Below, piece after piece: positions 1 through 33,588 of a stretch of 64,000 nucleotides of DNA. Position 1 is the first letter of the stretch. Each line of letters starts with the position of its first letter. This stretch comes from Vulcanimicrobiota bacterium (GTDB taxonomy: Bacteria; Vulcanimicrobiota; Xenobia; Xenobiales; JADMJV01): NCBI GenBank assembly GCA_050250895.1, contig JBFWNU010000011.1, forward strand, positions 1 through 64,000. Direction: 5' to 3'. Below the pieces are notes generated by a model that made no database searches, was not told the DNA's origin, and worked only from the letters and a program-made list of their open reading frames with translations. The translations under genes and the position numbers were made by a program.

Positions 1-16
1 CATTGACATCCGTGAT

Positions 17-128
17 GCTTCAATAGGGCCAGCTCGTCATCGAGCTGGATGGAACGCTTTGAGCTTCGCCGACCGTCGACTGGTCGAACTGGCTTCAATA
101 GGGCCAGCTCGTCATCGAGCTGGATGGA
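17..128 (-). CRISPR. Leader-proximal end of a type I-G CRISPR array: 2 repeats (17-53, 92-128), one full ~38-nt spacer (54-91), partial spacer 1-16; array probably continues beyond the left edge
   Basis: Two identical 37-nt repeats. Minus-strand sense TCCATCCAGCTCGATGACGAGCTGGCCCTATTGAAGC, with hairpin CCAGCTCG-ATGA-CGAGCTGG and the ATTGAAGC end typical of I-G repeats. Adjacent to cas2. Confidence 0.93.
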
Positions 129-333
129 GCGCTCGCCGGAGTCCCTTTCACCACAACGCTTCTCGACCCTCCTTGCGAGCGTAGGCGTCCCTTCAAGCTC
201 AGTAGAGCGAAACTTGAGGAGAAATCACGGCGCAAGAAGGGTCGAGGCGTTGCCCTATCTGGGCTGCGAGCGTCGACTGGGGTCGAAGGCACCACCGAGA
301 CCCTCGACCCCTCACCTATGCGATTGTCAAAGA
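129..333 (-). promoter_or_regulatory. CRISPR leader
   Basis: Non-coding gap between the cas2 stop and the first repeat, oriented with the repeats. Confidence 0.7.
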
Positions 334-627
334 TCACAGAAGTGTCGGGCCACGCCTCGGCGGCTCGTAGGGCACTCCGACCCATTCGACGCGGGCAGCT
401 AAATTCTTACTGGGCCCGAGGTCAAAAATGAGCACCTGGTCCATATCGTGATTGACAATCTCGGTCAATTCTCTAACCATCCGCGTCTTCAAGAGATCAT
501 CGAGCTGGCAACGAAAGACCGACAATTGCACATGCTCGCCGTAGGCCTTCATGGTCTCGAACACCAGGCGGAGCCGCTTGGGGTCGCAGATATCATAGGT
601 CACAACCATATCCCGTTTGAGGCTCAT
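334..627 (-). CDS. cas2: CRISPR-associated endonuclease Cas2
   Basis: VVTYDICDPKRL and YGEHVQLSVFRC motifs. ATG at 627 overlaps the cas4/1 stop (ATGA). Confidence 0.95.
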   Translation of the reverse strand: MSLKRDMVVTYDICDPKRLRLVFETMKAYGEHVQLSVFRCQLDDLLKTRMVRELTEIVNHDMDQVLIFDLGPSKNLAARVEWVGVPYEPPRRGPTLL

Positions 628-2261
628 CTTGTTACAAACACCGGATACTCCTCGATCTCTCCGGCCAGGCAACGGGCCAACAGACGAGCCTGCACGTAGA
701 GCACCCGCCGATAGCTGAGCTGGTATCCGAAGACGGGATGGGACAGCTCCGCGTCCAAGCGTCGCTCGAAAGCTCGAATGACGGCGTGTCGGCCGTCCCT
801 GGTCAGGCTCACGGCGCCAGCCCGACTATAGAAGTTGCCCGGACCCAACTGCCGCTTGTTGATTAGACTCAGCAACGTCGAGTCAGCCACCAGCGGACGG
901 AATTCCTCCATCAAGTCAAGGGCTAGAGCGGGTCGGCCGTAGCGCGGTTGATGGTAGAATCCCTGGTATGGGTCGAGCCCGATGGACTCGCAAGTCACCA
1001 CCAGCTCTTTGCTCAGCAGTGAGTAGAGATACGACAGCACGGCGTTGACCGGATCGGTCGGGGGCCTTCGGGTTCGCGACTCGAAGCTGAATGTCTCAAT
1101 GTCCTGGGCGGCGCGGGCGCGAAACATGCCAGAAAGTCTCGAGAAATACCATTTCGCGGCCATCCCCTCGATGCCGAGCAGCGAGCCCAGATTGTCCGTT
1201 TTGAGGGCGGCTCGGCGCAACCGTTGCATCTCGTCGAGCACGTCATCGCAGTCACCCCGGTAGTTCCTTCGGAGCATCGTTCGCTGGTTCTGGATCTTGG
1301 CGGCCACGAAGCGTCGGGCCAGGCTCAAGCAGTAGTCGTTGTCAAAAGCACGCCGGAATTGGTGTTGGCGCAGCTCGATGTTCTTGTGGGTTGGCCCCGT
1401 AGTCATGCCCGCAAACCAACCGCCGTAGCTGAAGTAGCAGATCGGGATGCCACGTTCACAGAGTGTCCGGACAGCCTGGGTGCTGACCTGAATGTTGCCC
1501 CTCAAGCAGACCTGAGACACCTCGATCAGGCGACAGGTCTTGACCAGTTCCCCCTTGCGCTTGACCTCCAGCACGCCTTTGCTGACACCGATGGTAAGGC
1601 CCTGCTCGTCCACGTACAGGGGTAAGGCGTCATCCTTGGGCGCGAATAGACGGCGGGGCTCTTTCTGGAGCCCCCGCAGCAGATTCACTTCGTCTGGCAG
1701 GCAGATGCTGTTGAGTGAGCAGGCCGGGCACCTGGGACTGTCTTCGAGCGGCGGGGGGATGGCCGGTATGCTCAGGGTCAGGCGAAGCTGGCGTAAGGCA
1801 TCCAAAGTCAGCTTCACCAGTTCGTCGTCGAAGGGTACCTCCACGCGGCTACGCGTGGTCGCAAAATAAACAAAGCCCCGCTCGCAACGATAGCCATTTT
1901 CACGCAGAATGAGGCCCTGGGCACAAAGTTGCACCCGTTCAGGGTCCCACACTGGTTCGTCTCGTTTAGAGGGCTTGCCTCGCTTGGTCTCGACCGGCGA
2001 CACCTCGCCGCCCTCACCCTCGATCAAGTCGAACTTGGCTAACAGGCCCACGCCCGGTGCCGACATTAGCACCGAGCGTGCCTCGAAATCTGGCGCTTCC
2101 ATCTGCCCACCGCCCCGGTCGACCCGGCGATGTTGCAGGTGGCCGTCCTCGGTAAAGTAGTTGTCGCGCCATTCTTGCTGAGCCCACTCGAGATAGGCCA
2201 GTCGGTTGCAATAGACGAACTCGTTGAGCATCCTGGCCGGCACCAGGTCGGGCACCTCCAC
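624..2261 (-). CDS. cas1: Cas4/Cas1 fusion (type I-G)
   Basis: N-terminal Cas4 (EFVYCNR, D-L-I-E, E-T-K, QLCAQ, CPACSLNSIC) fused to Cas1 (GIEGMAAKWYF, RRPPTDPVNAVLS, GFYHQ, LALDLMEEFRP). Confidence 0.95.
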   Translation of the reverse strand: MEVPDLVPARMLNEFVYCNRLAYLEWAQQEWRDNYFTEDGHLQHRRVDRGGGQMEAPDFEARSVLMSAPGVGLLAKFDLIEGEGGEVSPVETKRGKPSKRDEPVWDPERVQLCAQGLILRENGYRCERGFVYFATTRSRVEVPFDDELVKLTLDALRQLRLTLSIPAIPPPLEDSPRCPACSLNSICLPDEVNLLRGLQKEPRRLFAPKDDALPLYVDEQGLTIGVSKGVLEVKRKGELVKTCRLIEVSQVCLRGNIQVSTQAVRTLCERGIPICYFSYGGWFAGMTTGPTHKNIELRQHQFRRAFDNDYCLSLARRFVAAKIQNQRTMLRRNYRGDCDDVLDEMQRLRRAALKTDNLGSLLGIEGMAAKWYFSRLSGMFRARAAQDIETFSFESRTRRPPTDPVNAVLSYLYSLLSKELVVTCESIGLDPYQGFYHQPRYGRPALALDLMEEFRPLVADSTLLSLINKRQLGPGNFYSRAGAVSLTRDGRHAVIRAFERRLDAELSHPVFGYQLSYRRVLYVQARLLARCLAGEIEEYPVFVTR

Positions 2262-2263: not shown

Positions 2264-5200
2264 CTAACGCTTCAAAAGTCGCAACTCTTTGGAGCGCGGT
2301 CCGGCTATGGCCTGGGCCGGCGTGAAGTTGCGCACTTTGAGAACGGTGATCCTCTGTGAGCGCATGACTTCGGCCACTCCGATCTCGTCGAGGTCAACAC
2401 GCTTCGAGAGAAGCCAATCGCAGTGCGAGACCAGGCTCCTAACGGAGTCCTCCGTCAATGGTGCCAACCAGATCGGCCAGCGGAAGTAGGTGTTGCGACT
2501 GCCCTTGCCCTCGAATCCCAAGGTTTGCATCTGGCGGACCGTTGGCACGGTGGCAAACAACGGCAACGCCTCTACAGCTAGCCGGTTCGCCCCCCGAACT
2601 GTGCGAATCGGGTCTCGACTCGGTTCGGTCCACCGCAGAGCGTATCGTCGGTCGTCGGCCGGGTCGAAGCGCAGACTCGGTTTGTCATCTTGATAGCCCC
2701 AGGGCTCAAAGAGAGCGTGACGCAGGTGTTCGGGCTCGGTCAGCGTCTGGAGGTCTCTCATCGTCTTGAGGAAGTGTTGGTGGCCGACGCCGCTCATAGT
2801 GCGAAAAGCGGTGTCTTGCACCATCTCGCCCTGCCTCGCAGCCTCGCACCCCAGAGCAGTAAGCCAGTCGGCCCAATCGCGGTCGCCCATTTCCAGCCAG
2901 TGCTTTACCGCCTCCCGGGCGCAGTCGCGGTAGGTGCCCAATTCGATCTTGTTGGAGTCATCTAAGCTGTCCATCGGTGCTGGCCACCGCGACTTGCTGA
3001 GGTTCTGGTGGAGCAGGTTCACCAGTTCCATCTCTGACATCTCCTCCGGCAGGTGCAGGACCGGTGACCAACAGGCTTGGGCCTCCCACGACAACCGGAC
3101 CTGGGTGTCCAGGCATCGGTTGAGCGTTCTCAGCACACCGATGGCCGCCAAGAAACCGAGGAGATTTCCGCCATCAAGACCTGCTAATTTGAGACAGTGG
3201 GCCGGACTGGCCGACGTTACCCGCGGCTGGGCCGAGGACTTCAGCTCAAGAGGCGGCGCCTGCCAGCCCCCTGGTTCAGAGCATCGGTGGTCCGCGCAGA
3301 CGATTAGTGACTCCAGATAGGCGAGACCCCACCAGCCATAACGCCGCACGCAGCGCCAGAAACGATCCAGGTGACCACTTTGGAGAGATGGCAGCGCGCT
3401 GTCAGCCGTGCCGTCAAGCTCCACGCCGAGATAGTCTAGATTGACCTGGCCGACCGTCTTGCCTTCGGGCACAGTGTCGGCCAACGGACGGGCCTGGCCA
3501 TGGTGTACCGCCACTAAATGCAGAACCAGGTCCGGGTCGTGCGCTTGCCTAAGCAAATCCGGACGACTTTCGGAGAGAGTGGCTGAAAGAAACTCGTGAC
3601 GCTTGCCCTTCGGGTACCCGGCCCACCGCCGAGCCAGGTCTCTCTGAGCCTTGGTCTGAAATCGCTGGGACTTGGCCAACAAATCGTCATTGAGGCTGAC
3701 GCTACCCCCTCGAAGCCAGGCCTGAAAACGAGAATCGGCTTTGCCCAGGTCGTGGAGTTCGCCGGCAAGTTGCAGATCTGAGACCAATTCCGGAGCGAGC
3801 GTAGCAAGTTGGGCCCAGCCAGCCGCCGTATTCGCAACGTTGTCGCAGTGTTCTCTGAGAGGAACCTCTCGATCACCCTGGTTGGAAGACTCGTCTTCGT
3901 GGGTGAAGTCATCCGAAGGCCTCTTGGAGTCAAGCTTGCACACAAGCACCCACCCTTTGCCATCAGGGCAACGCTGGAGCTTCTCAATCACCTCCGCGCC
4001 CTTCGACCTTGCTGGCTCTTCGGCATAGGGCTTTCGTGCTTTCTCACTACGCGAGGGCTTCTGTGCAGCGTCCAATACTCGAGCAAGCCAGTTGTCTTCC
4101 GCCACGTGGCTCCTTAGAGTGTCAACGGCGGCCTCGACGGTTTCGGGGTCCAGTAGCTCGACCTCCGTGGCCTCAAAGGCCGCAAAGAACTCGCTCCAAG
4201 TCTCAGGATGGACCCCCGGCAATTCGCGACCGGGCCGAATCCTCAAGACACCTCGCCGACGCGTCCTCTGCTGCGCCTCATCCCCTCGGTCCAGTGCGAC
4301 CTTGACGGGTATATCGACAATCTCCCCGAGCCGCGAAAGCTGGTCTTTTGTAACCACTACGGTGTCCCCAGGGCGTAGGTAAGCTTCGGCCCCGGCGGAC
4401 CGTGGACGTTGCAACGCCACATAGCCCGTTGTTGGGTCATCCGGACCGCGCCAGACCAAAGTTCTCAAGCCACTGAGGTCTGGAGAGGTTTCCTCAGCTG
4501 CTTCTCCCGATTCGATGTCACTTGTCAGGTCAGGTTCAGATTTTTTGGCCAGCCAACTCTTTGCGACATGGAGTGGCACCGGGAACGTCTCGGCGACAGC
4601 CGGAGGCACCAGCGAGAGAGTCTCGCGGAAGACGGATTGAGGGATGTCGAACGGTTGCCCCTCAGCGTTGAGTTGGCTCAGGTCCTCGCGACAAACAAAG
4701 CGTACCTCTGGTAGGCCCGCATCAGTTCCGCGTAGGAAGACTGAGGGATCAACATCGGGCGCGGGTCGGGGGTTCGTCTGGACCAGGCAGTCCAGGTGAG
4801 AAGGCATCAGAATGGGTGCATCGGAAGCTGCTTTCGATAACCCTTCTGGCTTAGCAAGCTTGTCCAAGCTGTCGACGCCAAAATCCACGAAACCATCGAC
4901 GGCCACCGACCTGAGCCAATTCCAGGTGTTCGTCAACGCCTCACCATAGATGGCATCTGGCTCTTTGGCTTCGACATGCTGCGGCCCGGCAACTACCACC
5001 CCCGGCGCGGAGGCGGACACTCCCAGACGATTGAGTCGGCCGAACCGTTGGCGGAGCGCGTCAAGAGAGGCGCATTCCGTGACAAGTCCGTCGAAGTCGA
5101 GATTGGCACCCACCTCGATACACTGCGTAGCTACGACAAACAACGGGTCGGCTTGCTCTCTGGCACGACCAGGGGTGGCTGCAATCCGTGCCCGATGCTG

Positions 5201-6214
5201 CCGGTAAAGCTCCTCGCGGTCGAGTTCGCGCATGCGCCCCGTCAACAGAAGAGTCTGCTTGCCGGCTTCTCGCAACCGCCTTTCGGCGGAACGGGCCGTG
5301 GCCACTCGATTCACCAAAATCGCCACAGTATCGAGCGGCCCGCTTCGCTGCAGCTTCACCGCCTCGTCCACTAAAAACTGAGCGAGCTGCTCGTGCCACC
5401 GCTTTCCCTTGACCTTCTCGGCGAACTCCAATCGGCTGGGCTTGGCTGCCGAGAGACGAGGCCCCAGCGTGGGGTCTCTGTGGTCCTGCTCGTCGAGCTG
5501 GAACAGCCTGCGATTGGTCGAAGGTGTGGCCGTCATGGTCGTCAGCTGGAAGGGTCGCCCGACAGTCTTCTTGGCCTGGCCTCTAAAACTCTTGACCCAG
5601 TTGAGCGTCTGGCGAAACGGCTCAGAGCAATGGGCCTCGTCGAGAATGACCAAAATGTCATTACCGACCAAACCCGCGTGATAAACACTGGCCGCCCGGC
5701 TCACTCCGTAACCTCTGAAGAAGAGGCGGGAACCCAACTGGTCGACGGTGCTACACACAACGAGGGGCTGGGTCGGGTTTTTAGCCCAACCGTTGTCGCG
5801 ATAAATGCCGCCACGTAACTGAAAGGCCTCGAGGGGGCTGACCAGGTCTTCGCCAAAACGGTCGGCTCCGGCGCTCTCAAGGAGATGCTCTCGGACTCGT
5901 CGCACCACGTCGCTTTGTGGATTCTTGAGGGCCGTTACAAGCTTCTTTGCGTGCTCATAGGCTTCATCGACTACCACGCGACGGTCAACCACAAAGAAGA
6001 TCCGGCGGGGGGCGTCGGGCTGGCCCATCGCGAGGGCAAAGACCGCAACGTCAATGCAAGCGGTCTTGCCGCTGGCCGTAGGCAGGGAGATATCCGCGGG
6101 CCAGCGGTCTTCGGCTAAGACCGTCTTCAACAATCTCTCTTGCCACGGAAATGGTTGAAACCCGTGGACTTCTTCCATGAAGGCTCGGAAGTCACTTTCG
6201 CTGAGGTTACTCAT
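2264..6214 (-). CDS. cas3: Type I-G Cas3 (helicase plus C-terminal HD nuclease) fused to a Cas8g-like Cas3-extension domain (~2264-3200)
   Basis: Helicase motifs PTASGKT, DEAH, TAT, QRFGRLNR. HD domain LREH...HDLGK...HE...HHG...ADH. Then GLDGGNLLGFLAAIG...LRFDPADDRRYA...GANRLA...WPIW. Confidence 0.9.
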   Translation of the reverse strand: MSNLSESDFRAFMEEVHGFQPFPWQERLLKTVLAEDRWPADISLPTASGKTACIDVAVFALAMGQPDAPRRIFFVVDRRVVVDEAYEHAKKLVTALKNPQSDVVRRVREHLLESAGADRFGEDLVSPLEAFQLRGGIYRDNGWAKNPTQPLVVCSTVDQLGSRLFFRGYGVSRAASVYHAGLVGNDILVILDEAHCSEPFRQTLNWVKSFRGQAKKTVGRPFQLTTMTATPSTNRRLFQLDEQDHRDPTLGPRLSAAKPSRLEFAEKVKGKRWHEQLAQFLVDEAVKLQRSGPLDTVAILVNRVATARSAERRLREAGKQTLLLTGRMRELDREELYRQHRARIAATPGRAREQADPLFVVATQCIEVGANLDFDGLVTECASLDALRQRFGRLNRLGVSASAPGVVVAGPQHVEAKEPDAIYGEALTNTWNWLRSVAVDGFVDFGVDSLDKLAKPEGLSKAASDAPILMPSHLDCLVQTNPRPAPDVDPSVFLRGTDAGLPEVRFVCREDLSQLNAEGQPFDIPQSVFRETLSLVPPAVAETFPVPLHVAKSWLAKKSEPDLTSDIESGEAAEETSPDLSGLRTLVWRGPDDPTTGYVALQRPRSAGAEAYLRPGDTVVVTKDQLSRLGEIVDIPVKVALDRGDEAQQRTRRRGVLRIRPGRELPGVHPETWSEFFAAFEATEVELLDPETVEAAVDTLRSHVAEDNWLARVLDAAQKPSRSEKARKPYAEEPARSKGAEVIEKLQRCPDGKGWVLVCKLDSKRPSDDFTHEDESSNQGDREVPLREHCDNVANTAAGWAQLATLAPELVSDLQLAGELHDLGKADSRFQAWLRGGSVSLNDDLLAKSQRFQTKAQRDLARRWAGYPKGKRHEFLSATLSESRPDLLRQAHDPDLVLHLVAVHHGQARPLADTVPEGKTVGQVNLDYLGVELDGTADSALPSLQSGHLDRFWRCVRRYGWWGLAYLESLIVCADHRCSEPGGWQAPPLELKSSAQPRVTSASPAHCLKLAGLDGGNLLGFLAAIGVLRTLNRCLDTQVRLSWEAQACWSPVLHLPEEMSEMELVNLLHQNLSKSRWPAPMDSLDDSNKIELGTYRDCAREAVKHWLEMGDRDWADWLTALGCEAARQGEMVQDTAFRTMSGVGHQHFLKTMRDLQTLTEPEHLRHALFEPWGYQDDKPSLRFDPADDRRYALRWTEPSRDPIRTVRGANRLAVEALPLFATVPTVRQMQTLGFEGKGSRNTYFRWPIWLAPLTEDSVRSLVSHCDWLLSKRVDLDEIGVAEVMRSQRITVLKVRNFTPAQAIAGPRSKELRLLKR

Positions 6215-7679
6215 CTGTGCGCTCCTCTCTTAGCGGTCGAAATAGCCCATAGCCACGGTAGCGCCCCGCCCCTAGCAGCACTGGGCCTTGGACCGGCATC
6301 TCAAACTCCAGTCTTGCGTGGGTCATCATGCGTTGGCCGCCACGTCCCTTCGGCAATCCCGGAAAGTCGGGGCTCGTCGGGCACCCGCGAAAAGCGGAAA
6401 CCCGACTAACACTTACAAGGGGCGACGGGAGCCCGATACGCTGGCAGGACCGAACGATCAGGCCTTCTATTTCGCGCTCTCGACGCTCGCGGTCTGAGGG
6501 ACGCGACTTCAGGTGACGGTCGAGCACGACTGGTGTGACTGATGCCCACAATCGCGCTCCCCTACGAGCGGTCCAGGTGGAAGATTGGAGGCTCCGCTCT
6601 CCGGTCATCGAGGCCTTGGCGCGGACTCTGGCCTCACCAAGCCGCCCCATCTTAAGAAGGATGCCATCGTCGTCTTCGATGATGAGTATCAGTCGCTGAA
6701 GCTCATCGTTGGGAATGTCCCGCTTTGGTAGTGCCAGACCCAAGCCCAGTAGATGCCCGTCGGCATGTTCGTGGCCGATGAACGGGAGTGGCACAATAGC
6801 CAGATGGTCTTCTTCGACGGGCGTGCCGTCCTCGTGATGGCCGCTCAACCAGGCTGGACAAGGGTCAGGATATCGCGAGAGCAAGGTATTGCGTAGTACT
6901 CCTGTGAGCAGCAGGGTGGACCTGAGACCATATCGCTGCTTATTCTGAGGGTCGAGCTTGAGAACCAATAGATTTGGCCTAAAGCAAGTACCCCTCACTT
7001 CCTTCTCTGGCGATTCGTCAGCCTCGGTGTAGCCTTGCCAATAGCCGATGCTCGGTCGCTGACCGCCTTCGAAGGCCCGTTCTAACAGCCTCAAGCGTCC
7101 ACCTCGAGGTATTCGCAGACGAATGGCCGGGTTCTTTAAAGTCGGCAACAGTGTGCGCCCGACGAAGGCGTCTGTCTCGTCCAACCAGACCCAAGTCAAA
7201 GAAGCGGAGTGGCCCACGTAGGTCACTCGCGAGCAGAGTTCACGCAGCGCCTCCCTGACCTCGGCCGGGGCATCGGAGGCCCAACGGTAACCCACCGCCT
7301 CGTCACCCACCACGGCAACTGGAAACTGACGAGCCTGCTTGGGTCGGTCGTCCGGCAACAGGGCGAGGGCGGATTTGAGCTGAGCTTCCTTTACGTTGGC
7401 GATGTCTTTGATACGCGGGCGCTGGACATCGTTGACAGGGACGAAGTGGGTTACCGTCGCGCGCTCCCAAGCTTCGGGAACGATCAACTCTGGGGCCGGT
7501 TGGCACTCAAGCCACTCCAGCGCCCGTCGCCCCTCATCGTTGGGTTCGCTGAAGTGAGCTGCCGTCAAGGCCATGAACAGTCGGTCGGGGTGAGGCGGCC
7601 ACTCCGGCTCGAGGCGAGAGCCGACTGAAGTTGCCATGGCGCGCCCCAATAGGAATCGGACGCCTATCGTCAGCCCCAT
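6207..7679 (-). CDS. csb2: Type I-G Csb2 (Cas5/Cas6 fusion)
   Basis: N-terminal EWPPHPDRLFMAL. WASVTPVVLDR. C-terminal GPVLLGAGRYRGYGLFRP glycine loop. Confidence 0.92.
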   Translation of the reverse strand: MGLTIGVRFLLGRAMATSVGSRLEPEWPPHPDRLFMALTAAHFSEPNDEGRRALEWLECQPAPELIVPEAWERATVTHFVPVNDVQRPRIKDIANVKEAQLKSALALLPDDRPKQARQFPVAVVGDEAVGYRWASDAPAEVREALRELCSRVTYVGHSASLTWVWLDETDAFVGRTLLPTLKNPAIRLRIPRGGRLRLLERAFEGGQRPSIGYWQGYTEADESPEKEVRGTCFRPNLLVLKLDPQNKQRYGLRSTLLLTGVLRNTLLSRYPDPCPAWLSGHHEDGTPVEEDHLAIVPLPFIGHEHADGHLLGLGLALPKRDIPNDELQRLILIIEDDDGILLKMGRLGEARVRAKASMTGERSLQSSTWTARRGARLWASVTPVVLDRHLKSRPSDRERREREIEGLIVRSCQRIGLPSPLVSVSRVSAFRGCPTSPDFPGLPKGRGGQRMMTHARLEFEMPVQGPVLLGAGRYRGYGLFRPLREERTDE

Positions 7680-8887
7680 TAGTCTGACTCCGGCGCGGTC
7701 AGCGCGAGCAGTTGGCTCCGCTTGACCAGTTCTCCAAGGTCAGGGGAGGGAGCCAGCTCTATCTCCTTTTCGTGCCACGGCAGACCAGCCTTCTTAGCAT
7801 CCTCCACCGCCCGCTTGAGAATGGCGATAGCCCCTTCGGACTCGACCTGATAACGCCTGGGCTCTTGTCCCGGTTGAGCGAGCAGCTCCCATTCGGGGAC
7901 TTGAGTAGGGATCAGGAAGCAACGAGAGCGCAGGTCCAGACCCTTTTCTGACGCGAGCGCAGCCGCGCAGATACCCAGTGCGGCGAGCACCGTTCGGCCC
8001 GCCTGATTTTGGGTCAGAGTGGCGGCTTTGCCGCCCACAGGAAACTTCAACCGGCGAAGCCCGGCCAACGACAGAACCGTGGTTTGAAAGGCTCGTTCGA
8101 CGGTAAAACCCCCGGGCGTGATCGACGGGGCGATGTTGCCGTGGTTGATCTCGGAGGGCTTGCCCTCCTTACCGTAGCGTTTCGGTTTGCCTTTCACCGT
8201 GACAGCCGATTGCTCGTCCATGGTCCAGCCACCGTCTTTCGCCTCGTAGATTGTGGCTGAAGCCTTCTCGATCTGAGCAGGGTCGATCCGGCTCGACGTC
8301 TTGACGCCCCCTACCGCCTTGACCCCGACGATTTCCGAGACCAGGCTACGAGCAAACTTCGCCCCCAGCCCGCCGCGCGGTCCGGTCGAGTCCCAGAGTC
8401 CGAAGATGAGCGCGGTGGGACAGTATTCCAGAAGTGGAGTCGCATTTCCATTGGAGACAATGTCAAGTACACTGCCAACTTTGGACTTGCGGAAGGGTTC
8501 ACCGTTGTGGAGGCAGTCTCTCAACAGAGCATCGGCAATTCGGTGGGGGGCATCGAGGCTAGTCACTCGCAAGGGTCGCGGCAAGTCATAGTCTTTGAAA
8601 TCGACCGTCAACACCGGCAGTTCTAGTCGTCCCTCCTCCCAGGCATCGAGCAGAGCCACTTCCATGCGGTTAGCCTGAGAAGCGACCGAGTCGAGCAACA
8701 CACAATTGACCGCATCTTCGTGCCCGGGCAGTCGGCGGCTCTCGGTGGCGTAGTTGCCGCCCTCATAGGTTGGCGGGAAGATCTTGTCGCCCGGCCCACC
8801 GGCCGGCTGGAGTTCCAGTGTGCAACGAAAGGCGGCGCCGCTTCCGGCGACCGCATCACGAACAGTCTCATAGCTCAACTTAGACAT
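7679..8887 (-). CDS. csb1: Type I-G Cas7 (Csb1)
   Basis: LQPAGGPGDKIFPPTY, LLDSVASQANRME, APHRIADA, ALIFGLWDS and DLRSRC motifs. GGAGG RBS. Confidence 0.93.
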   Translation of the reverse strand: MSKLSYETVRDAVAGSGAAFRCTLELQPAGGPGDKIFPPTYEGGNYATESRRLPGHEDAVNCVLLDSVASQANRMEVALLDAWEEGRLELPVLTVDFKDYDLPRPLRVTSLDAPHRIADALLRDCLHNGEPFRKSKVGSVLDIVSNGNATPLLEYCPTALIFGLWDSTGPRGGLGAKFARSLVSEIVGVKAVGGVKTSSRIDPAQIEKASATIYEAKDGGWTMDEQSAVTVKGKPKRYGKEGKPSEINHGNIAPSITPGGFTVERAFQTTVLSLAGLRRLKFPVGGKAATLTQNQAGRTVLAALGICAAALASEKGLDLRSRCFLIPTQVPEWELLAQPGQEPRRYQVESEGAIAILKRAVEDAKKAGLPWHEKEIELAPSPDLGELVKRSQLLALTAPESD

Positions 8888-8943
8888 GTTACCTCCGATA
8901 ATTCAACATCAAGATTACCTCCACGATGGAAGGCTTTCGAACA

Positions 8944-8979
8944 ATAATAACGAGGCGGAGTGACAGAGAATGTCACTCC
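8944..8979 (-). promoter_or_regulatory. Putative cas operon promoter: palindrome GGAGTGACA-GAGAA-TGTCACTCC followed by a -10 box TATTAT
   Basis: 9-bp inverted repeat at 8957-8979. On the minus strand it reads TGTCAC-N10-TATTAT (-10 at 8949-8944). Confidence 0.6.
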
Positions 8980-9027
8980 TAGGACGACCCAGGAGGGTCC
9001 ATTCAAGGTTCCCTAGCGAGTAACCTG

Positions 9028-9042
9028 CGACAGGATCTGTCA
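9028..9042. promoter_or_regulatory. Second operator-like palindrome CGACA-GGATC-TGTCA
   Basis: Same arms and 5-nt spacer as 8961-8975 and 16563-16577, with one mismatch. Confidence 0.45.
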
Positions 9043-9044
9043 GT

Positions 9045-9070
9045 GGGGTGGGCGGCCGGCCGCCCACCCC
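9045..9070. other. Perfect 26-bp GC-rich palindrome just downstream of the YjzC-like stop (hairpin without U-tract)
   Basis: GGGGTGGGCGGCC/GGCCGCCCACCCC. Confidence 0.7.
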
Positions 9071-9078
9071 TGAGGGGT

Positions 9079-9255
9079 CTACTGGGTGGGGTCAGCTAGC
9101 ACGTAACAGTGTCCCGGCTTCGCCGTGGGAGGAAAGGGCTCACCCTGCACCACTGTCGCCTCGTGGCCGGTGCGATGGTCGTCGTGACAGCGGACTACCG
9201 CCCACTGACCTGATCGTGGGCAGATCTGCCCCGGTCTGTATTTTACTCTACTCAT
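9079..9255 (-). CDS. 58-aa YjzC-family-like small protein (absent from the ORF track)
   Basis: Translated by hand: MSRVKYRPGQICPRSGQWAVVRCHDDHRTGHEATVVQGEPFPPTAKPGHCYVLADPTQ*. The PG-x-x-x-P-x-SG and GEPFPPT pattern resembles YjzC. GGAGG lies 5 nt before the ATG. Confidence 0.8.
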   Translation of the reverse strand: MSRVKYRPGQICPRSGQWAVVRCHDDHRTGHEATVVQGEPFPPTAKPGHCYVLADPTQ

Positions 9256-9345
9256 CTATACCTCCATGAATGTGAAATGGAGGAGTCTTGGGATGTCGAG
9301 CCAAATCAAAGGGTGTTAGATCGATTGGCCTTGTCCGTCGACTCC

Positions 9346-9385
9346 AGAGAGGCTCGGGTGGCCACCCGAGCCTCTCTATCTTTTT
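9346..9385. terminator. Perfect 32-bp palindrome (9346-9377) followed on the + strand by ATCTTTTT; either a + strand intrinsic terminator or a 5' hairpin of the yjzC mRNA
   Basis: AGAGAGGCTCGGGTGG/CCACCCGAGCCTCTCT plus T-run. Confidence 0.6.
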
Positions 9386-9409
9386 ACCACATCGCGGGGG
9401 GGAAGTCAA
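9381..9409 (-). promoter_or_regulatory. Sigma70-like promoter candidate P2 upstream of the YjzC-like gene
   Basis: TTGACT-17 nt-TAAAAA, with TG at the extended -10 position and a T-rich UP-like tract upstream. Last -10 base is non-consensus. Confidence 0.5.
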
Positions 9410-9435
9410 ACAAAAAAACTTCCTAAAACCATCTA

Positions 9436-9483
9436 GTTATACAGAATAACAAAGAGACATCGGAAACATCTCGTGATCCAGAA
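9436..9483 (-). promoter_or_regulatory. Promoter candidate P1 overlapped by a TTC-PAM protospacer for the adjacent repeat-like guide
   Basis: TTC (9483-9481) then TGGATCACGAG (9480-9470). Extended -10 TGtTATTCT (9451-9443) and TATAAC (9441-9436). Confidence 0.6.
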
Positions 9484-9577
9484 AAAAAGTGAGGCCGGGG
9501 AGTAGCTCTTGAGGAGCCAGAGAAACCAACTCGTGATCCATCTGCAATGAGGCCCGACCTCGCTTTCGGATTCGCGT
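9483..9577 (-). ncRNA. CRISPR-repeat-like regulatory RNA (CreA/CreR-like mini-array): degenerate repeat, guide, second degenerate repeat/poly-U
   Basis: Pseudo-repeat 9577-9541 has a hairpin, 4 nt and an ATTGCAGA handle, versus hairpin, 4 nt and ATTGAAGC in the true repeat. The guide starting at 9540 matches the site at 9480. Downstream TGGCTC/GAGCTA hairpin and GGCCTCAC-T7. Confidence 0.7.
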
Positions 9578-9676
9578 TCCGTGCTTAGAAGCCTCCTCCA
9601 AGCGAGCGGGTACAAACACTCTGCTGACCGGCGGCTGCGAGACACAACGAAGCCCGCCATCACGGATCAGTGTTCA

Positions 9677-12600
9677 TCACCCCAGCACCCTCGAGCCCGC
9701 CTGGTCTTTGACCACGCGAATCTGCACGGGTAATCGCTCGGCCAACTCCGAAACGTGAGTGATGACCCCGACCAGGCGACCCCGCTGCTGCAGCATCTCG
9801 AGGGTCTGAGCCACAACTTCCAGGGTGTCCTGGTCGAGGGTCCCGAACCCCTCGTCGATGAACAGGCTCTCGAGGGGCCTCCCCTCACTCAAATAGTCCA
9901 CCATCGCCAAGGCCAAAGACAGCGAGGCCAAGAACGTCTCGCCGCCAGAAAGCGAGCGAACGTCGCGGGCCTCGCCGGCGTTCCAGCCGTCCTCGACCCA
10001 GATGTCATCACCGCGAAGACACAGGCGATAGCGACCCGACAGCCGCTCGAGCTCCACGCTAGCCCGCTCCAGAATCTCCTCGAGCAGGCGATTGGCCACG
10101 AAGGCCTTGAGGCCATCGGCGTTGAGCAAGCCCGAGAGCACCTTGTAAGTGCTAGCCTGCGAGCTGTGCTGCTCGAGCAAGTCTCGCAGGTCCTGGGCCT
10201 TGGCCAGACCCTCTTTCATCAAGCCATGCTCGCGGGTGGCCCCGCCGAGCTTGGTCTGGCACTCGCCGAGGTCCTCACTACACTGCTTGAGTTCCGCTTC
10301 GGCGGCCTCGACCTCGGCCTGGTTCACGCGCCGGCCAGCCAGCGTCTCTTCGCACTCCGCGATCCGCTGGCAGGTCAGACGCCGCGCATCCTCATAGACC
10401 TGCAGGTCCCCTTCCAGTCGCTTCATCTGGTCCGGCGCCATCAGTGCCAAAAACAGGTCCTTCTCAGACGCCAGACCCAGCTCCTCAAGCCGCTCCAAGA
10501 ACCGGGTCTCCACGGCCATCAGTTCAGCAGCCGCATCGGCCCGCGACCGAATCCGCTCTCGCTCGAGCGCCTCGGCGCTAGCCTTGCAGGCTTCGGCGGT
10601 TCGCTTCGCGTCCAACGCCTGGGTCCTGTCCTTTTCCAGAACTCGCGCGCGAGTGGTCACGGTCGCGACTTCCTGCTCGCAGGCCTGCAGATAGTCGACA
10701 CCCTCACCGAACTCGGCCGAGAGCTGCCGGTCAAGCTCGGCGGCCTGCGCCTCACATTCCAGCGCGGCCGCCTCCAGCTCTGACAGACGTTGCTGGCCGG
10801 TGCGCCGGTCGGCCTCTAACTGGGCAATGGCCCTCTCCAGTCCACGAAGGGCCTCGCTCTCCTGAGACTTCAGCAGAGCCAGCTCGTCCAGACGACCACG
10901 ACGCTGGTGTTCCGCTGCCAGGGCAGACTCGATGGTGCCCACCGCATCGTCGGGCCAGCCCGGCCAACCCATGGCCTCGATCAGATCCTGGCGAGCGGCC
11001 ACCAGTTGCATCGACAGCTCCTGCCGCTTGGCCTTGACCTGCTCCAGCTCTTCCTCGGCCTGTTCCGCTTCGAAGTCGGCTCGCTCCAGACGGAGCCGCC
11101 GAGCGTCCAGGGTCTCGCGAGCGTCCTCCAGCGCCTGCTCGGCCTCGGCCAAAAGCTCGTCGACCTCCAGGACCTCGCCATCCGGCTCGGCGGGCGCCTG
11201 GGCAACTTGCTGCAGACAAACCGGGCAAGGCTCACCCACCTTCAGATTGTGCCTGAGACGGTGAGCCAGATGCTCTTCACGAACCCGACGGGCCTCGCGG
11301 CAGGCCCGCTCGCTCTCTTTCAAGACTCGGTCGGCCGTAGCAAAGCGCTCCTCGGCAACCTTCAAGTCTTGCTGCGCTTTGGCGACGGCTTTGTGAGCTG
11401 CCTCGAGGTCGAGTTCGGCCAACCGTCCAGCCAGCTCGTCGGCGGCTCGAGCCTTGACCCGGCAGCCGGTCAGAGTGGCCTCGAGGCCGGCCTCGCCCGC
11501 CAAAGATTGTCGCTCTTCCTCAAGCAACTTTAGGCGAGCCTCGAGCTTGCCGAGGGTGGTCTGTTCGGCGGTCAGCGTCTCGTTCAACCTAATCATGGCT
11601 GTGCGGCGTTGCTCGAGTTCACCTCGAGTCTTGACCAGCTCGCCCGTGTGGCGCGCCCACTCGCGGGCCACCTGAGCCAGGCCTCCCAGAGCCTCAAGCC
11701 GACTTTCCAGGGCGGGTATGGCACCGGCCGCCGTCTCGGCTTGGTCGAGCCCCTCCGCAGCCTTTGCCAATCCCTCCTCCGCCTTGGTCAGCGCGTCTTT
11801 GGCTTGCTGATACTGAACCTGCTTGTCCCGGTGATTCCTGCGACAGCGAGTCACCTCGTCGAGTTGCGCTCGTTCGCCTTCTAACTCACGCGCCCGAGCC
11901 AGCTGGCGGCGGCTGGCTTCCATCTCGTCGGCCCTCTGCTCGAGTAGCTGAGCCTGCTCGAGAGCCTTCTCCAGCGTGCGGGTGGTCTCACCCAGACGCC
12001 TGGCTAGCTGGGCAGCCAGATCAAGCTCTCCCAACCGACGCTTCAAGGCTTTCTGCTCGGCCTCGAGCGCCTGAATGCGAAGCTCCAGCTCGGCCAGAGC
12101 TTCAGGCGAGATATGCTCATGCTGGCCCAGAGCGAGAGTCAACTTGTCTTGCTCGGCTTCGGCCTGCTTTTGGCGCGCCCGTGCCAGTTCAGACATCTGG
12201 TCGTAGATGCCGAGGTTGGCAAGCTCCATGAGCAATAGTTTGCGATTGGCCAGTTTCTCGGGCTTGAGCAGACGATCGAACTGTCCCTGCGGCAGCAGCA
12301 GCGCCCGGGTGAAGACCTGATACTTCATCCCCAAGAGGGCTGTGATTTGCTGGGTGGCCGCACCCTGCGGCGTCCGCTCGGACGAAGCTTCCCATTCCCC
12401 GTCACGAAACGGCCGAATCTCGACTTCATGGTTGGGGCCGCTCTTGCGCAGCTTGACCGTTCGCACCACCTGATAGAGCTGATCCGAGAGCGAGAACTCG
12501 ACCTCGATGCGAGCTTCCTTGCATCCCTGAGCCACGATCTCCGAGGCGGCCTTGGCGTTGTCCCAGCGCGGGGCTTTGCCATAGAGCGCAAAACAGATGG

Positions 12601-19602: not shown

Positions 19603-19998
19603 ATGGAAGAGCTACCCCAACAGATCGCGAAGCTGGCCGCCGACCTGGCTCAGGTGAAAACCCAGGTCGGCGAAAACAGCCTCGAAATCAAAGAGAACCG
19701 TCGCGGAATCGAAGAGAACCGCCGCGAGATTGAAGAGAACCGCCGGGGGATCGAAGAGAACCGCCACGGGATTCAAGAGAACCGCCGCCTGCTCGAAGAG
19801 CACTCCCAATGGATGGCGCGCAAAGACCAGGCTGATGCCGAGCTGATGGAGTTTCTGCGCGAGCAGTTCCAGCAGCAGGACGCCAAATTCGCGATGATGG
19901 CCGAGGAGTGGCGCTCGGACCATCGCGCCGTGGTCGAGGTGGTGCGCTCCAACAGCCGTCGAATCGACCGGCTGGAACAAAGACTCGGCATCGACTGA
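19603..19998 (+). CDS. Coiled-coil protein with IEENRRG heptad repeats
   Basis: About 5 imperfect 21-bp repeats at ~19687-19790. TATGCT-N6-ATG start. Confidence 0.7.
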   Translation: MEELPQQIAKLAADLAQVKTQVGENSLEIKENRRGIEENRREIEENRRGIEENRHGIQENRRLLEEHSQWMARKDQADAELMEFLREQFQQQDAKFAMMAEEWRSDHRAVVEVVRSNSRRIDRLEQRLGID

Positions 19999-32079: not shown

Positions 32080-32270
32080 AGAAGAGGGGGTCGCGCAGCC
32101 AGTCCGAGGTTCGTCGCGAGCTCGAGGCCCTGCTGGCGCAATCGCACGATGACTCGAACTTGCGAGAAAGACTTGAAGAACTCGCTGGCGAGCTGGCCTT
32201 CGCCGGCCTGACCTTCGTCTGGGCGCCCGCGAGCTCACCCGGCCGGGCGTCACCCCGAGCGGCGAGCTGA
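32076..32270 (+). pseudogene. Probable 5' gene fragment truncated by repeat sequence
   Basis: Coupled GTG start and ~51 protein-like codons (…LEELAGELAFAGLTFVWAP), then it runs into element repeats and stops. Confidence 0.5.
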
Positions 32271-32474
32271 CCTGGCCCGTCATCCCGGGCGGCGAGCGGC
32301 TGACTCGTGAACGCCTCTGTCTTCCGCACGGAAGTAGCCGCCTCTTTAGCCGCCCGCCATCCCGGCCTTAAGGTCACCCGGCCGGGCGTCACCCCGGGCG
32401 GCGAGCGGCTGACTCGTGAACGCCTCTGTCTTCCGCACGGAAGTGGCCGCCTCTTTAGCCGCCCGCCATCCCGG
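32235..32474. repeat. Direct repeats at the 3' end of the HNH gene
   Basis: 82-bp duplication (32284-32365 and 32393-32474, 1 mismatch), each copy with CTTCCGCACGGAAG. CACCCGGCCGGGCGTCACCCCG at ~32236 and ~32374. Confidence 0.85.
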
Positions 32475-33473: not shown

Positions 33474-33588
33474 GGGACCTCCAGAGAGTTGGTTCGGGGA
33501 TTGCTCCTATTTTAGCATTTTTCAACCCCGAACAACAAGCGAAAACACCGATGAAATCTACCTTTGGAGCGGTTATCCACCTGAAGAC

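What the first reader, a model, noticed from the sequence alone, without database searches (positions are those of the whole stretch)
9436..9577. Hidden CRISPR-repeat-like guide that targets a PAM-flanked site in the adjacent promoter (candidate type I-G CreA/CreR module)
Seen (minus strand): 9577-9541 ends ...TCCGA-aagcgagg-TCGGG-CCTC-ATTGCAGA. This copies the true repeat geometry (hairpin, 4 nt, 8-nt handle ATTGAAGC), with 10 of the last 14 nt identical. The sequence immediately after the handle (TGGATCACGAGTTGGTTTCTCTGGCTCCT) recurs 60 bp downstream as TGGATCACGAGATGTTTCCGATGTCTCTT. Positions 1-11 are perfect and 22 of 29 match ungapped. Three of the mismatches fall at positions 12, 18 and 24. 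The downstream copy is preceded by TTC, whereas the guide copy is preceded by AGA. The site overlaps the upstream half of a promoter (TGtTATTCT / TATAAC). A second repeat-like hairpin, GGCCTCAC and a T7 run could close the RNA. Established: type I-G uses a TTN PAM, type I Cascades flip out every 6th guide base, and CreA/CreR RNAs of other type I systems repress promoters through partial seed pairing without cleavage. Inference: Csb2 processes this RNA, and I-G Cascade represses the promoter driving the YjzC-like gene and/or the cas operon, acting as autoregulation or an anti-CRISPR sensor. The guide 3' boundary (about 15-30 nt) is uncertain.
Basis: partly seen in the sequence, partly recalled or inferred. 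Interest (0 to 1): 0.92.

Follow-up and report, generated by a model that had tools for sequence, protein, structure and literature searches.

The report
CRISPR-like self-regulating guide RNA gene
Upstream of a type I-G CRISPR-Cas operon sits a worn-down CRISPR repeat followed by a short guide that matches a nearby, correctly flanked site in the operon's own control region, which is the signature of a known kind of self-regulating guide RNA (CreR/CreA) that has not yet been tested in this subtype.

Summary
On the minus strand a degenerate repeat end (GGCCTCATTGCAGA, ending at 9541) is followed by a guide (9540-9512). The guide recurs 60 nt downstream (9480-9452) behind a TTC PAM, with positions 1-11 perfect, 22 of 29 matching, and mismatches at 12, 18 and 24.

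The locus is a complete type I-G system: cas7g, csb2, cas3g with an extension domain, cas4/cas1, cas2, and 187 repeat copies in the genome.

- A related genome (G013) has the same layout with an unrelated guide and a matching TTC-flanked target 58 nt downstream.
- Across 81 I-G loci, 19 of 46 standalone repeat-like elements upstream of cas7g have a TTN-flanked seed match nearby, against 0.34 expected.
- Pairing runs to about position 17, with positions 6, 12 and 18 free. This is the type I Cascade signature.

It is therefore a CreR/CreA-type element. Such elements were already predicted for I-U (the former name of I-G) in a supplementary figure of Liu et al. 2023, so it is a new member of a known kind.

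Untested: RNA processing and repression. It is open whether the regulated cargo is the cas operon, the small YjzC-like gene, or both.

The parts
9541..9577 (-). Degenerate CRISPR repeat (PsiR1). Only its 3' end, GGCCTCATTGCAGA (9554-9541), resembles a repeat. ATTGCAGA (9548-9541) is the would-be 8-nt 5' handle.
   Evidence: 10 of 14 to the own repeat. (12 of 14 to the I-G consensus end). (aligns with the clearly repeat-like PsiR1 of G013). (shuffles reaching the score: window 144 of 2000, G013 0 of 2000).
9512..9540 (-). Guide (PsiS). The seed plus second and third segments (positions 1-17) are 9540-9524. The 3' boundary is unknown.
   Evidence: In 19 loci the pairing signal extends to about position 17.
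9481..9520 (-). Stretch between guide and target: weak hairpin 9520-9502, GGCCTCAC 9496-9489, T7 run 9488-9482. It may form the 3' end of the RNA. It is not demonstrably a second repeat.
   Evidence: fold not better than shuffles. (1248 of 2000 shuffles reach the alignment score).
9481..9483 (-). TTC, the PAM of the target (type I-G uses TTN).
   Evidence: The PAM rule is from the passage read. 19 of 24 seed hits in I-G loci carry TTN.
9452..9480 (-). Target (protospacer). It matches the guide at 22 of 29, and a 36-nt footprint would reach 9445. It is unique in the genome.
9436..9441 (-). It is not conserved in G013.
9382..9409 (-). Promoter-like element TTGACT-16 nt-TAAAAA, with TGG just before the -10.
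   Evidence: Read by eye. Equivalent TTGACA-17-TACAAA in G013 and TTGACG-17-TATCGT in G008. It was not called by the tool's consensus scan.
9346..9377 (.). Perfect 32-nt palindrome at the predicted 5' end of the small-gene mRNA.
   Evidence: z -6.25; 0 of 200 shuffles. (reads as a terminator on the + strand). Hairpins at the same place in G013 and G008.
9079..9255 (-). Small ORF, 58 aa, distant YjzC-like. It is the first gene downstream of the target.
   Evidence: (PF14168 at 17.4 and 21.1 bits against a cut-off of 25).
9045..9070 (-). GC-rich hairpin directly after the small ORF.
   Evidence: Hairpins follow the homologous ORFs in G013 and G008.
8960..8976 (-). Conserved inverted repeat GTGACA-N5-TGTCAC upstream of cas7g. 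It may be a second promoter or an operator.
7679..8887 (-). cas7g (csb1).
6207..7679 (-). csb2 (Cas5-Cas6 fusion), the expected processing enzyme.
   Evidence: Function from the passage read.
2264..6214 (-). cas3g fused to a 'Cas3-extension family' domain (residues 1010-1301).
334..2261 (-). cas4g/cas1g (2261-624) and cas2 (627-334).
17..133 (-). First two repeats of the CRISPR array, cut by the contig end. The genome holds 187 copies of the repeat.

Best explanation
The stretch 9577-9452 (minus strand) encodes a CreR/CreA-type crRNA-like regulator of the adjacent type I-G system, together with its DNA target.

Shown:
- a degenerate repeat end with an 8-nt handle-like ATTGCAGA;
- a guide directly behind it;
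- a unique TTC-flanked site 60 nt downstream that pairs through the seed, with the every-sixth-base pattern of type I Cascades;
- the same design, with different guide and target sequences, in a related genome and in many other I-G loci.

Inferred:
- the RNA is transcribed from the conserved ~130 nt upstream of the repeat;
- it is trimmed by Csb2 or otherwise to carry the handle, and is loaded into I-G Cascade;
- the complex binds the target without completing an R-loop (no pairing beyond position 29; mismatches at 15, 20, 21 and 28), so Cas3 does not cut;
- the bound complex lowers transcription of the downstream unit (small YjzC-like gene, then cas7g-csb2-cas3g), either by occluding promoter or upstream elements or by blocking RNA polymerase reading through from the guide gene.

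The result would be negative feedback. Repression would be relieved when Cascade is titrated by crRNAs or disabled by anti-CRISPRs, as shown for CreR in subtypes I-B, I-E and V-A.
For: 1. Sequence facts are verified, and the PAM plus seed is unique in the genome.

2. The system is complete and apparently active: all I-G genes score far above their cut-offs, and the genome holds 187 repeat copies.

3. Covariation within the same architecture. G013 (same family, different genus) has PsiR1 …GGCCCCATTGAAGA, then CGTGTATGGCAATTAATATT. 58 nt downstream it has TTC plus CGTGTATGGTAATTAATATT. After that come the same promoter-like element, a hairpin, the small ORF and cas7g. PsiR1 and about 130 nt upstream of it align between the two genomes, but guide and target do not.

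4. Generality.
- Repeat-like 14-mers (at most 2 mismatches) occur at 0.322 per kb in the 1.6 kb upstream of cas7g, against 0.027 per kb elsewhere. They are present in 30 of 81 loci.
- Of 46 candidates (at most 3 mismatches) in 33 of 81 loci, 24 have a seed match within ±500 nt, and 19 of those carry TTN.
- Random 32-mers from the same regions give a TTN-flanked hit in 33 of 4485 cases, so 0.34 would be expected among 46.

5. Cascade signature. Among the 19 pairs, mismatches per position are 9 at position 6, 14 at 12 and 12 at 18, but only 1, 1, 2 and 2 at positions 13, 14, 16 and 17. Positions 12-17 were not used for selection. Beyond position 18 mismatches are near random (10-16 of 19). There are 18 distinct seeds.

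6. Compensatory differences between related loci: L017 against L036 at positions 8-11, and L064 against L066 at position 5.

7. Orientation is consistent. 18 of 19 protospacers lie on the cas7g coding strand with the PAM upstream. In many loci the target abuts a -10 or overlaps a -35 by eye.

8. The handle variant ATTGCAG also occurs in L085, which has its own TTC-flanked match.

9. Literature passages read. I-G uses a TTN PAM, and Csb2 leaves an 8-nt handle by cutting 4 nt 3' of the hairpin. CreR represses cas promoters by partial pairing, and PsiR1 mainly conserves the handle nucleotides. CreA can derive from one or two ectopic repeats, with PsiR1 the more diverged (abstract).
Against: - There is no expression or processing evidence of any kind.
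- The window's PsiR1 is weak. Its handle matches 6 of 8. Its likeness to the own repeat is reached by 144 of 2000 shuffles. Its hairpin is no better than shuffles, so Csb2 processing is doubtful.
- No second repeat can be shown, so the 3' end of the RNA is undefined.
- The target does not overlap the best-conserved promoter-like element. A 35-nt protospacer ends 36 nt upstream of its -35 (12 nt in G013).
- A conserved inverted repeat or possible promoter directly upstream of cas7g, together with a hairpin after the small ORF, means the cas genes may not depend on the targeted region.
- Both copies are preceded by GGCCTCA, and similarity continues to position 29 (7 of 11 matches in positions 19-29). 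This fits a local duplication or a self-acquired spacer as the origin, and it makes autoimmunity avoidance less obvious than in the 17-nt cases.
- 48 of 81 loci showed no candidate element with my motif, and 22 of 46 candidates had no seed match.
- The 81 loci were chosen by Cas7g similarity to the window and are not phylogenetically independent.
Confidence: 0.72

Rival explanations
1. CreTA-type reading. The guide is a CreA antitoxin RNA whose main cargo is the small YjzC-like gene. That gene would be harmful when derepressed, making cells dependent on an intact I-G Cascade. The cas operon would be driven mainly by its own promoter.
For: - The small ORF is the first gene after the target. It is bracketed by a 5' palindrome and a 3' GC hairpin.
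- A conserved inverted repeat or possible promoter lies between it and cas7g.
- All 3 of its 3 close homologs found among the 401 genomes searched lie directly upstream of effector genes: I-G in the window and G013, I-C in G008.
- G008 also has a standalone I-C repeat end plus a guide with a 5+1+5+1 match next to the small gene's promoter.
- Other I-G loci also carry unannotated small ORFs between target and cas7g.
- Liu et al. use the name creR only until a coupled toxin is identified.
Against: - Nothing indicates toxicity.
- The protein is a distant member of a broad family (YjzC-like).
- More distant homologs show no cas neighbours: 14 loci in another family within ±1.5 kb, and 5 of 6 metagenome loci. 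The sixth metagenome locus is the same sequence as G013.
- The G008 match is flanked by GTT, not by the I-C PAM TTC that I recall.
- The hairpin after the ORF has no T run in the window.
Confidence: 0.13
2. Evolutionary fossil. The element is a decayed remnant of an old repeat-spacer unit that was duplicated locally, or of a self-acquired spacer. It no longer yields a functional RNA, and the match is historical rather than selected.
For: - The window's PsiR1 is the most degenerate of the set: handle 6 of 8, no hairpin, shuffle test 144 of 2000.
- Both copies are preceded by GGCCTCA, and similarity extends beyond the usual 17 nt.
- The target lies unusually far from the promoter-like element.
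Against: - The seed is perfect (11 of 11). The PAM is intact at the target and absent at the guide. Three of the seven mismatches fall at positions 12, 18 and 24.
- The homologous G013 element keeps the same design with other sequences, which means repeated renewal or maintenance.
- The I-G genes are intact and the array is very large.
Confidence: 0.1
3. The two copies of TGGATCACGAG are direct-repeat binding sites of a protein regulator, or a chance repeat. The likeness to a CRISPR repeat is coincidental.
For: - The window has 150 direct-repeat pairs of at least 11 nt within 20-300 nt.
- Intergenic regions often hold repeated operator sites.
Against: - A protein operator would be conserved in the orthologous G013 region, where the repeated sequence is entirely different.
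- Chance does not explain the repeat-like end immediately before copy 1, TTN before copy 2, and the period-6 mismatch pattern across 19 loci.
Confidence: 0.03

Closest known systems
CreR (Cas-regulating RNA) of type I-B, I-E and V-A systems. Source: Liu et al., bioRxiv 10.1101/2023.03.10.532045; passages and section 8 read.
   Same: - A degenerate repeat in the cas locus that mainly keeps the handle nucleotides.
- A spacer-like guide that pairs only PAM-proximally.
- A cognate PAM at a target close to the effector-gene promoter.
- No obvious toxin.
- The paper states that creA-like elements were also found by manual search in I-U, the former name of I-G (its Figure S7).
   Different: - No I-G case has been tested experimentally in the papers I could search. 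I could not see Figure S7, so I cannot tell whether this layout is shown there.
- Here no second repeat can be shown.
- The target lies downstream of the guide gene and 36 nt upstream of the -35-like box rather than in the core promoter.
- Pairing potential reaches position 29.
- The effector has Cas3 fused to an extension domain.
CreTA (CreA antitoxin RNA with CreT toxin) of haloarchaeal type I-B. Source: Cheng et al. 2022, PMC9458426; abstract and passages read.
   Same: - One or two ectopic, degenerated repeats, with PsiR1 more diverged than PsiR2.
- A guide that partly matches the promoter of the neighbouring small gene.
- A TTC PAM.
   Different: - The CreT described there is an RNA toxin that sequesters rare tRNAs.
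- Here the neighbour is a conserved 58-aa YjzC-like protein gene with no evidence of toxicity.
- A rare-codon feature is not shared by its homologs: AGA codons occur only in the window's copy, as read.
Regulatory mini-arrays of type I-E and I-F1. Source: Shmakov et al., PMC10120712; passages and Table 1 read.
   Same: - Standalone repeat-like sequences in cas loci.
- A spacer with a seed match of at least 10 nt to a PAM-flanked site at the effector promoter.
- Every sixth base not pairing.
- Their Table 1 lists I-G: 235 loci, of which 0.46 have at least one repeat-like sequence and 0.04 have a mini-array.
   Different: - That study names I-B, I-E and I-F1 as the subtypes where mini-arrays are common, and describes targets for I-E, I-F1, I-D and I-B. 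No I-G target is described in the text I read.
- The window's element is a single repeat end rather than a two-repeat mini-array.
tracr-L of type II-A (known to me only from the introductions read).
   Same: A natural guide with short complementarity that makes the effector repress its own promoter.
   Different: It belongs to a different class of effector (Cas9), a different RNA architecture and a different PAM logic.

Membership tests
CreR/CreA-type crRNA-like regulators | A standalone degenerate copy of the cognate CRISPR repeat inside or beside the cas locus, keeping the nucleotides that become the 5' handle. | tested here: met
   GGCCTCATTGCAGA at 9554-9541. It matches the own repeat at 10 of 14 and the I-G consensus end at 12 of 14; the handle matches 6 of 8. 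It is homologous in position to the strongly repeat-like PsiR1 of G013. On its own the window copy is only marginal (144 of 2000 shuffles).
CreR/CreA-type crRNA-like regulators | A spacer-like guide directly after the handle, with PAM-proximal partial complementarity to a site in the same locus. | tested here: met
   Positions 1-11 are perfect, 22 of 29 match, and there is no match beyond position 29. The site is unique in the genome.
CreR/CreA-type crRNA-like regulators | The cognate PAM next to the target and not next to the guide. | tested here: met
   TTC at the target against AGA at the guide. The TTN rule for I-G is from the passage read. 19 of 24 seed hits in I-G loci carry TTN, against 33 of 511 control hits.
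CreR/CreA-type crRNA-like regulators | The target lies within or next to the promoter of effector cas genes or of a toxin gene. | tested here: inconclusive
   The target lies 197 nt upstream of the small ORF and 565 nt upstream of cas7g. It ends 36 nt before the conserved -35-like box. The alternative TATAAC box is not conserved.
CreR/CreA-type crRNA-like regulators | A second degenerate repeat giving the 3' handle (mini-array form). | tested here: not met
   The alignment of the own repeat to 9528-9481 is reached by 1248 of 2000 shuffles, and in G013 by 1752 of 2000. The literature allows one-repeat forms, so this feature is not strictly required.
CreR/CreA-type crRNA-like regulators | Guide and target co-vary among related loci. 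| tested here: met
   The window against G013; L017 against L036 and L064 against L066; 18 distinct seeds in 19 pairs.
CreR/CreA-type crRNA-like regulators | The RNA is made, processed by the Cas6-type nuclease (here Csb2) and bound by Cascade. | not testable with these tools
   No RNA run was listed. The fold of PsiR1 gives no support.
CreR/CreA-type crRNA-like regulators | Cascade-dependent repression of the target promoter without DNA cleavage. | not testable with these tools
   Inference from analogy only.
CreTA addiction modules | A toxic gene product expressed from the Cascade-repressed promoter. | not testable with these tools
   A conserved 58-aa ORF sits downstream. Its toxicity is unknown, and distant homologs are not linked to cas genes.
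Type I-G CRISPR-Cas | cas7g (csb1), csb2, cas3g and cas4g/cas1g genes, with repeats ending in ATTGAAGC. | tested here: met
   NCBIfam TIGR02570, TIGR02165, TIGR02621 and NF049935 all score above their cut-offs. Repeats. No separate cas8g was called; instead Cas3g carries NF049934.

The most novel reading that the evidence does not exclude
The Cascade-guided site mainly controls the small YjzC-like gene. That gene would be a protein-type CreT-like safeguard, or some other Cascade-gated effector. It travels with effector operons of two subtypes in this bacterial family (I-G in the window and G013, I-C in G008). More broadly, I-G loci carry small, unannotated ORFs of several unrelated families between the crRNA-like target and cas7g. 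This would make Cascade-gated small proteins a common hidden layer of I-G systems, whose effector has Cas3 built in and must therefore bind its own DNA without cutting it.
Probability: 0.17. Interest if true: 0.75.

Novelty: new member of a known kind. Interest (0 to 1): 0.5.

Why it matters
Self-repression of cas genes by degenerate crRNA-like guides has been demonstrated for I-B, I-E, I-F1, II-A and V-A. In the papers I could search, type I-G appears only through a supplementary figure and one table row.

I-G is an interesting subtype for this mechanism. Cas3 is a stable part of the effector and helps R-loop formation (passage read), and here it is even fused to an extension domain. A guide that binds the host's own DNA safely must therefore stop short of activating a nuclease that is already on board.

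The 19 natural guide/target pairs collected here show pairing to about position 17, free sixth positions, frequent mid-segment mismatches and a TTN PAM. They give a ready-made rule set for testing that limit and for building I-G based repression tools.

The finding also explains a long intergenic region in this locus, and it flags the small ORF as a candidate regulated cargo.

Tried and rejected
- **RNA evidence.** One search for public RNA runs holding 9050-9700 was made. No RNA holder was listed.
- **Rfam.** A permissive scan of 8800-9800 gave only three sub-threshold matches (best E-value 0.071, all far below their gathering scores). I treat them as chance.
- **Strict first screen.** Requiring handle similarity of at most 2 mismatches and a perfect seed within 300 nt downstream on the same strand found only the window plus two hits that look spurious (non-TTN flanks) among 81 loci. 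It even missed G013, which has one seed mismatch. It was replaced by the two-strand, one-mismatch screen.
- **More examples of the window's exact layout.**
  - The small ORF was found by tblastn only in the window and L007 (the G013 contig) among the 81 loci.
  - A DNA search of 61 relatives found only G013.
  - The metagenome scan returned 6 loci. One (L115) is the same sequence as G013, and the other five have no cas neighbour.
- **Viral copies.** The 19-nt handle plus seed has no exact match in the viral contig collection.
- **Second repeat.** Rejected on shuffle statistics.
- **Pseudo-repeat hairpin.** Rejected on fold statistics. A long-range stem (GAGGTCGGG with CCCGGCCTC) followed by the T7 run appears in the 105-nt fold, but 20 of 200 shuffles fold as well.
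Not found by the scan and not conserved.
- **Protein operator idea.** Rejected because the repeated sequence is not conserved in G013.
- **Other small ORFs.** The small ORFs upstream of cas7g in other loci have no Pfam or NCBIfam family.
- **Steps not taken.** Structure prediction of the small protein and complex prediction were not attempted, because neither would settle toxicity or regulation.
- **Closed or unavailable sources.** Supplementary figure S7 of Liu et al. and the supplementary tables of Shmakov et al. were not available to me; they may already show I-G (I-U) examples.
Full report
**Setting.** The window is the first 64 kb of contig C11 of a 9.5-Mb genome. On the minus strand the gene order is as follows:
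- sbcD (14072-12717) and sbcC (12730-9677);
- a 421-nt intergenic region (9676-9256);
- a 58-aa ORF (9255-9079);
- cas7g/csb1 (8887-7679), csb2 (7679-6207), and cas3g fused to a 'Cas3-extension' domain (6214-2264);
- cas4g/cas1g (2261-624) and cas2 (627-334);
- a CRISPR array cut by the contig end (repeats at 133-92 and 58-17).

All I-G models score far above their curated cut-offs. The repeat occurs 187 times in the genome, mostly at the end of contig C13. The system therefore looks complete and has a very large spacer memory.

**The observation.** Read on the minus strand and recomputed by script:
- The sequence ends …TCCGA AAGCGAGG TCGGG CCTC ATTGCAGA at 9541.
- The last 14 nt match the true repeat end GGCCCTATTGAAGC at 10 of 14. 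They match GGCCTCATTGAAGC, the commonest I-G repeat end in other genomes, at 12 of 14.
- The 29 nt after the handle (9540-9512) recur at 9480-9452. Positions 1-11 are identical, 22 of 29 match, and the mismatches fall at 12, 15, 18, 20, 21, 24 and 28.
- The downstream copy is preceded by TTC and the upstream copy by AGA.
- TTN plus the seed (position 6 free) occurs only once in the whole genome.

**What did not hold.**
- The hairpin proposed for the pseudo-repeat is not in the minimum-energy fold, and the stretch folds no better than shuffles (z 0.09).
- A local alignment of the own repeat to the pseudo-repeat region is reached by 144 of 2000 shuffles.
- The alignment to the stretch between guide and target (the supposed second repeat) is reached by 1248 of 2000 shuffles.
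- The consensus scan reports no sigma-70-like promoter in 9000-9800.

**The decisive test: related loci.** A DNA search of 61 relatives found one homologous region, in G013, a different genus of the same family. That contig carries:
- a 14-repeat I-G array (repeat …GGTGGCCCCATTGAAGC) and a divergent cas4/cas1;
- then, on the other strand, …GAAGCTGGCCCCATTGAAGA followed by CGTGTATGGCAATTAATATT;
- 58 nt further on, TTC followed by CGTGTATGGTAATTAATATT;
- then TTGACA-17 nt-TACAAA, a hairpin, a homolog of the small ORF, cas7g, csb2 and cas3g.

In the pairwise alignment the pseudo-repeat and about 130 nt upstream of it are conserved. The guide and target regions cannot be aligned. The geometry is therefore kept while guide and target have changed together. 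G013's pseudo-repeat is unambiguous (0 of 2000 shuffles). This lends identity to the more decayed window copy at the homologous position.

**Generality in type I-G.** With an alignment of the two Cas7g proteins I fetched 80 further loci from many phyla (50-63% identity).
- Their arrays end in …GGCC[C/T]CATTGAAGC.
- Standalone 14-mers within two mismatches of that end are 12 times denser in the 1.6 kb upstream of cas7g (40 hits, 0.322 per kb, 30 of 81 loci) than in the rest of the loci with arrays masked (34 hits, 0.027 per kb).
- I took all 46 candidates (at most 3 mismatches, 33 of 81 loci) and asked whether the 11 nt after the handle recur within ±500 nt on either strand, comparing positions 1-5 and 7-11 and allowing at most one mismatch. 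24 do, and 19 of these are flanked by TTN: TTC 9, TTT 5, TTG 3, TTA 2.
- Random 32-mers from the same regions give a TTN-flanked hit in 33 of 4485 trials. That predicts 0.34 among 46.
- The five non-TTN hits have low overall identity (13-21 of 32) and look like chance.
- 22 candidates had no hit, and 48 loci had no candidate. The element is common but not universal, or my motif misses some.

**The pairing pattern.** Among the 19 pairs, mismatches pile up at positions 6 (9 of 19), 12 (14) and 18 (12). Positions 13, 14, 16 and 17, which played no part in the selection, mismatch in only 1, 1, 2 and 2 of 19. Beyond position 18 mismatches are near random (10-16 of 19). This is the five-plus-one periodicity of type I Cascade targets, and pairing stops at about 17 nt. 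The 19 pairs have 18 distinct seeds. Related loci show compensatory differences: L017 against L036 at positions 8-11, and L064 against L066 at position 5. 18 of 19 protospacers lie on the cas7g coding strand with the PAM upstream. The window and G013 differ from the rest in that similarity continues to position 29 (7 of 11 matches in positions 19-29 in each).

**Where the target sits.** By eye:
- Loci with a divergent mini-array have the target immediately after a -10-like box (for example L036: TTGACT-17-TACCCT, then the PAM; L085: TTGATT-16-TATATT overlapping the PAM).
- Loci with a co-directional guide have it overlapping or just upstream of a -35 box. L014 and L032 overlap it. L047 and G013 end about 12 nt upstream.
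- In the window a 35-nt protospacer ends 36 nt upstream of TTGACT (9409-9404), which with TAAAAA (9387-9382) forms the only promoter-like element conserved in the window, G013 and G008.

The mode of repression in this locus is therefore open. The options are occlusion of an unconserved promoter, interference with upstream promoter elements, or a block to polymerase reading through from the guide gene. The PAM-proximal side faces such polymerases.

**The downstream cargo.**
- The 58-aa ORF is conserved (69% and 58% identity to its homologs in G013 and G008). It hits Pfam YjzC below threshold in two genomes (17.4 and 21.1 bits against 25), and the protein atlas places it nearest YjzC clusters.
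- A perfect 32-nt palindrome sits at the predicted mRNA start (z -6.25), and a GC hairpin follows the stop codon. Both features recur in G013 and G008.
- Between the ORF and cas7g, the window and G013 share an inverted repeat GTGACA-N5-TGTCAC embedded in a possible promoter.
- In G008 the homolog precedes a type I-C operon. A standalone I-C repeat end with a guide matches a site next to the small gene's -35 in a 5+1+5+1 pattern, but with a GTT flank.
- More distant homologs have no cas neighbours.

These facts keep alive the reading that the small gene is the main regulated cargo (CreTA-like), but nothing shows toxicity.

**Comparison with what is known.**
- Liu et al. (bioRxiv 2023; passages and section 8 read) showed CreR-guided autorepression in I-B, I-E and V-A. 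They state that creA-like elements were found by manual search for I-D, I-C, I-E, I-F and I-U (their Figure S7, which I could not see).
- Shmakov et al. (PMC10120712; passages and Table 1 read) list I-G in a table (235 loci, 0.46 with a repeat-like sequence, 0.04 with a mini-array) but describe targets only for other subtypes.
- Cheng et al. (PMC9458426; abstract read) note that CreA can come from one or two ectopic repeats and that the first is the more degenerate. This matches what is seen here.
- Shangguan et al. (bioRxiv 2022; passages read) give the I-G facts: the TTN PAM, Csb2 cleavage 4 nt 3' of the hairpin leaving an 8-nt handle, and Cas3 as a stable effector subunit.
- Three searches of the held library found no experimental I-G case.

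**Verdict.** It belongs to a known kind (CreR/CreA crRNA-like regulators) in a subtype where only bioinformatic hints existed, so it is a new member rather than a new mechanism.
- Confidence that it is a functional Cascade guide/target pair that regulates the downstream unit: 0.72.
- The main uncertainties are the decayed repeat in this particular genome, the unknown RNA ends, the distance to the promoter-like element, and which gene is the real cargo.
- Interest is moderate (0.5). The I-G angle (nuclease built into the effector), the 19-pair rule set and the possible small-protein cargo are the parts worth an experiment.

Noticed in passing
window 2264-6214 (minus strand): Cas3g is fused to a ~300-aa 'type I-G Cas3-extension family' domain (NF049934, residues 1010-1301). 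No separate cas8g/csx17 gene was called in the operon. The extension may stand in for the large subunit.
   Followed up: partly
L090 (G008:C137) 5950-6400: The third close homolog of the small YjzC-like ORF sits directly upstream of a type I-C operon. A standalone I-C repeat end (GTGGATTGAAAC, minus strand) is followed by ATGTTCTAACTCA. That matches ATGTTATAACTAA next to the small gene's -35 box, with mismatches only at positions 6 and 12. The flank is GTT, not TTC.
   Followed up: partly
window 9346-9377; also L005 ~3603-3622 and L090 ~6084-6105: A strong hairpin (in the window a perfect 32-nt palindrome, z -6.25) lies right after the -10-like box of the small gene in all three genomes. On the opposite strand it reads as an intrinsic terminator, because the A run of the -10 region becomes a T run.
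   Followed up: partly
window 8960-8976 and L005 ~4003-4019: A conserved inverted repeat ([G/T]TGACA-N5-TGTCAC) between the small ORF and cas7g. It may be an operator or a second promoter for the cas genes.
   Followed up: partly
L042 4937-5167, L072 1814-2023, L012 3985-4224; L017/L020 9765-9959, L036 9770-9958: Other I-G loci also carry small ORFs (62-79 aa) between the crRNA-like target and cas7g. At least two conserved families are present (one with DDIL.DPELRE.FL…LRK..LPRSR). None has a Pfam or NCBIfam match.
   Followed up: partly
19 guide/target pairs: Besides positions 6, 12 and 18, mismatches are also raised at positions 3, 9 and 15 (3, 6 and 7 of 19). These are the middle of each 5-nt segment. 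It may be a way to weaken binding.
   Followed up: no
L116 1510-2298 and L119 58-840: In two metagenome contigs the YjzC-like domain (57% and 53% identical to the window's protein) is the N-terminus of a ~260-aa protein with a hydrophobic, membrane-like C-terminal part.
   Followed up: no
L009 9700-9822, L012 3468-4010: ECF-sigma-like sequences (region 4 motif) lie just upstream of cas7g in some planctomycete-type I-G loci.
   Followed up: no
window 32229-35553: A dense field of nested tandem and dispersed repeats (units of 17, 109-317 nt) containing the palindrome ACTTCCGCACGGAAG. 17 copies of a 24-nt motif were found.
   Followed up: no
window 53790-53969 and 19651-19818: In-frame-length tandem repeats: 18 nt x 7.5 (CAGGGCAACTCGGGGACC) and 21 nt x 5.4. 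They are likely repetitive protein segments.
   Followed up: no
window 1-133 and G000:C13 ~80700-88111: The CRISPR array is split across two contig ends. 187 repeat copies make it an unusually large array.
   Followed up: partly
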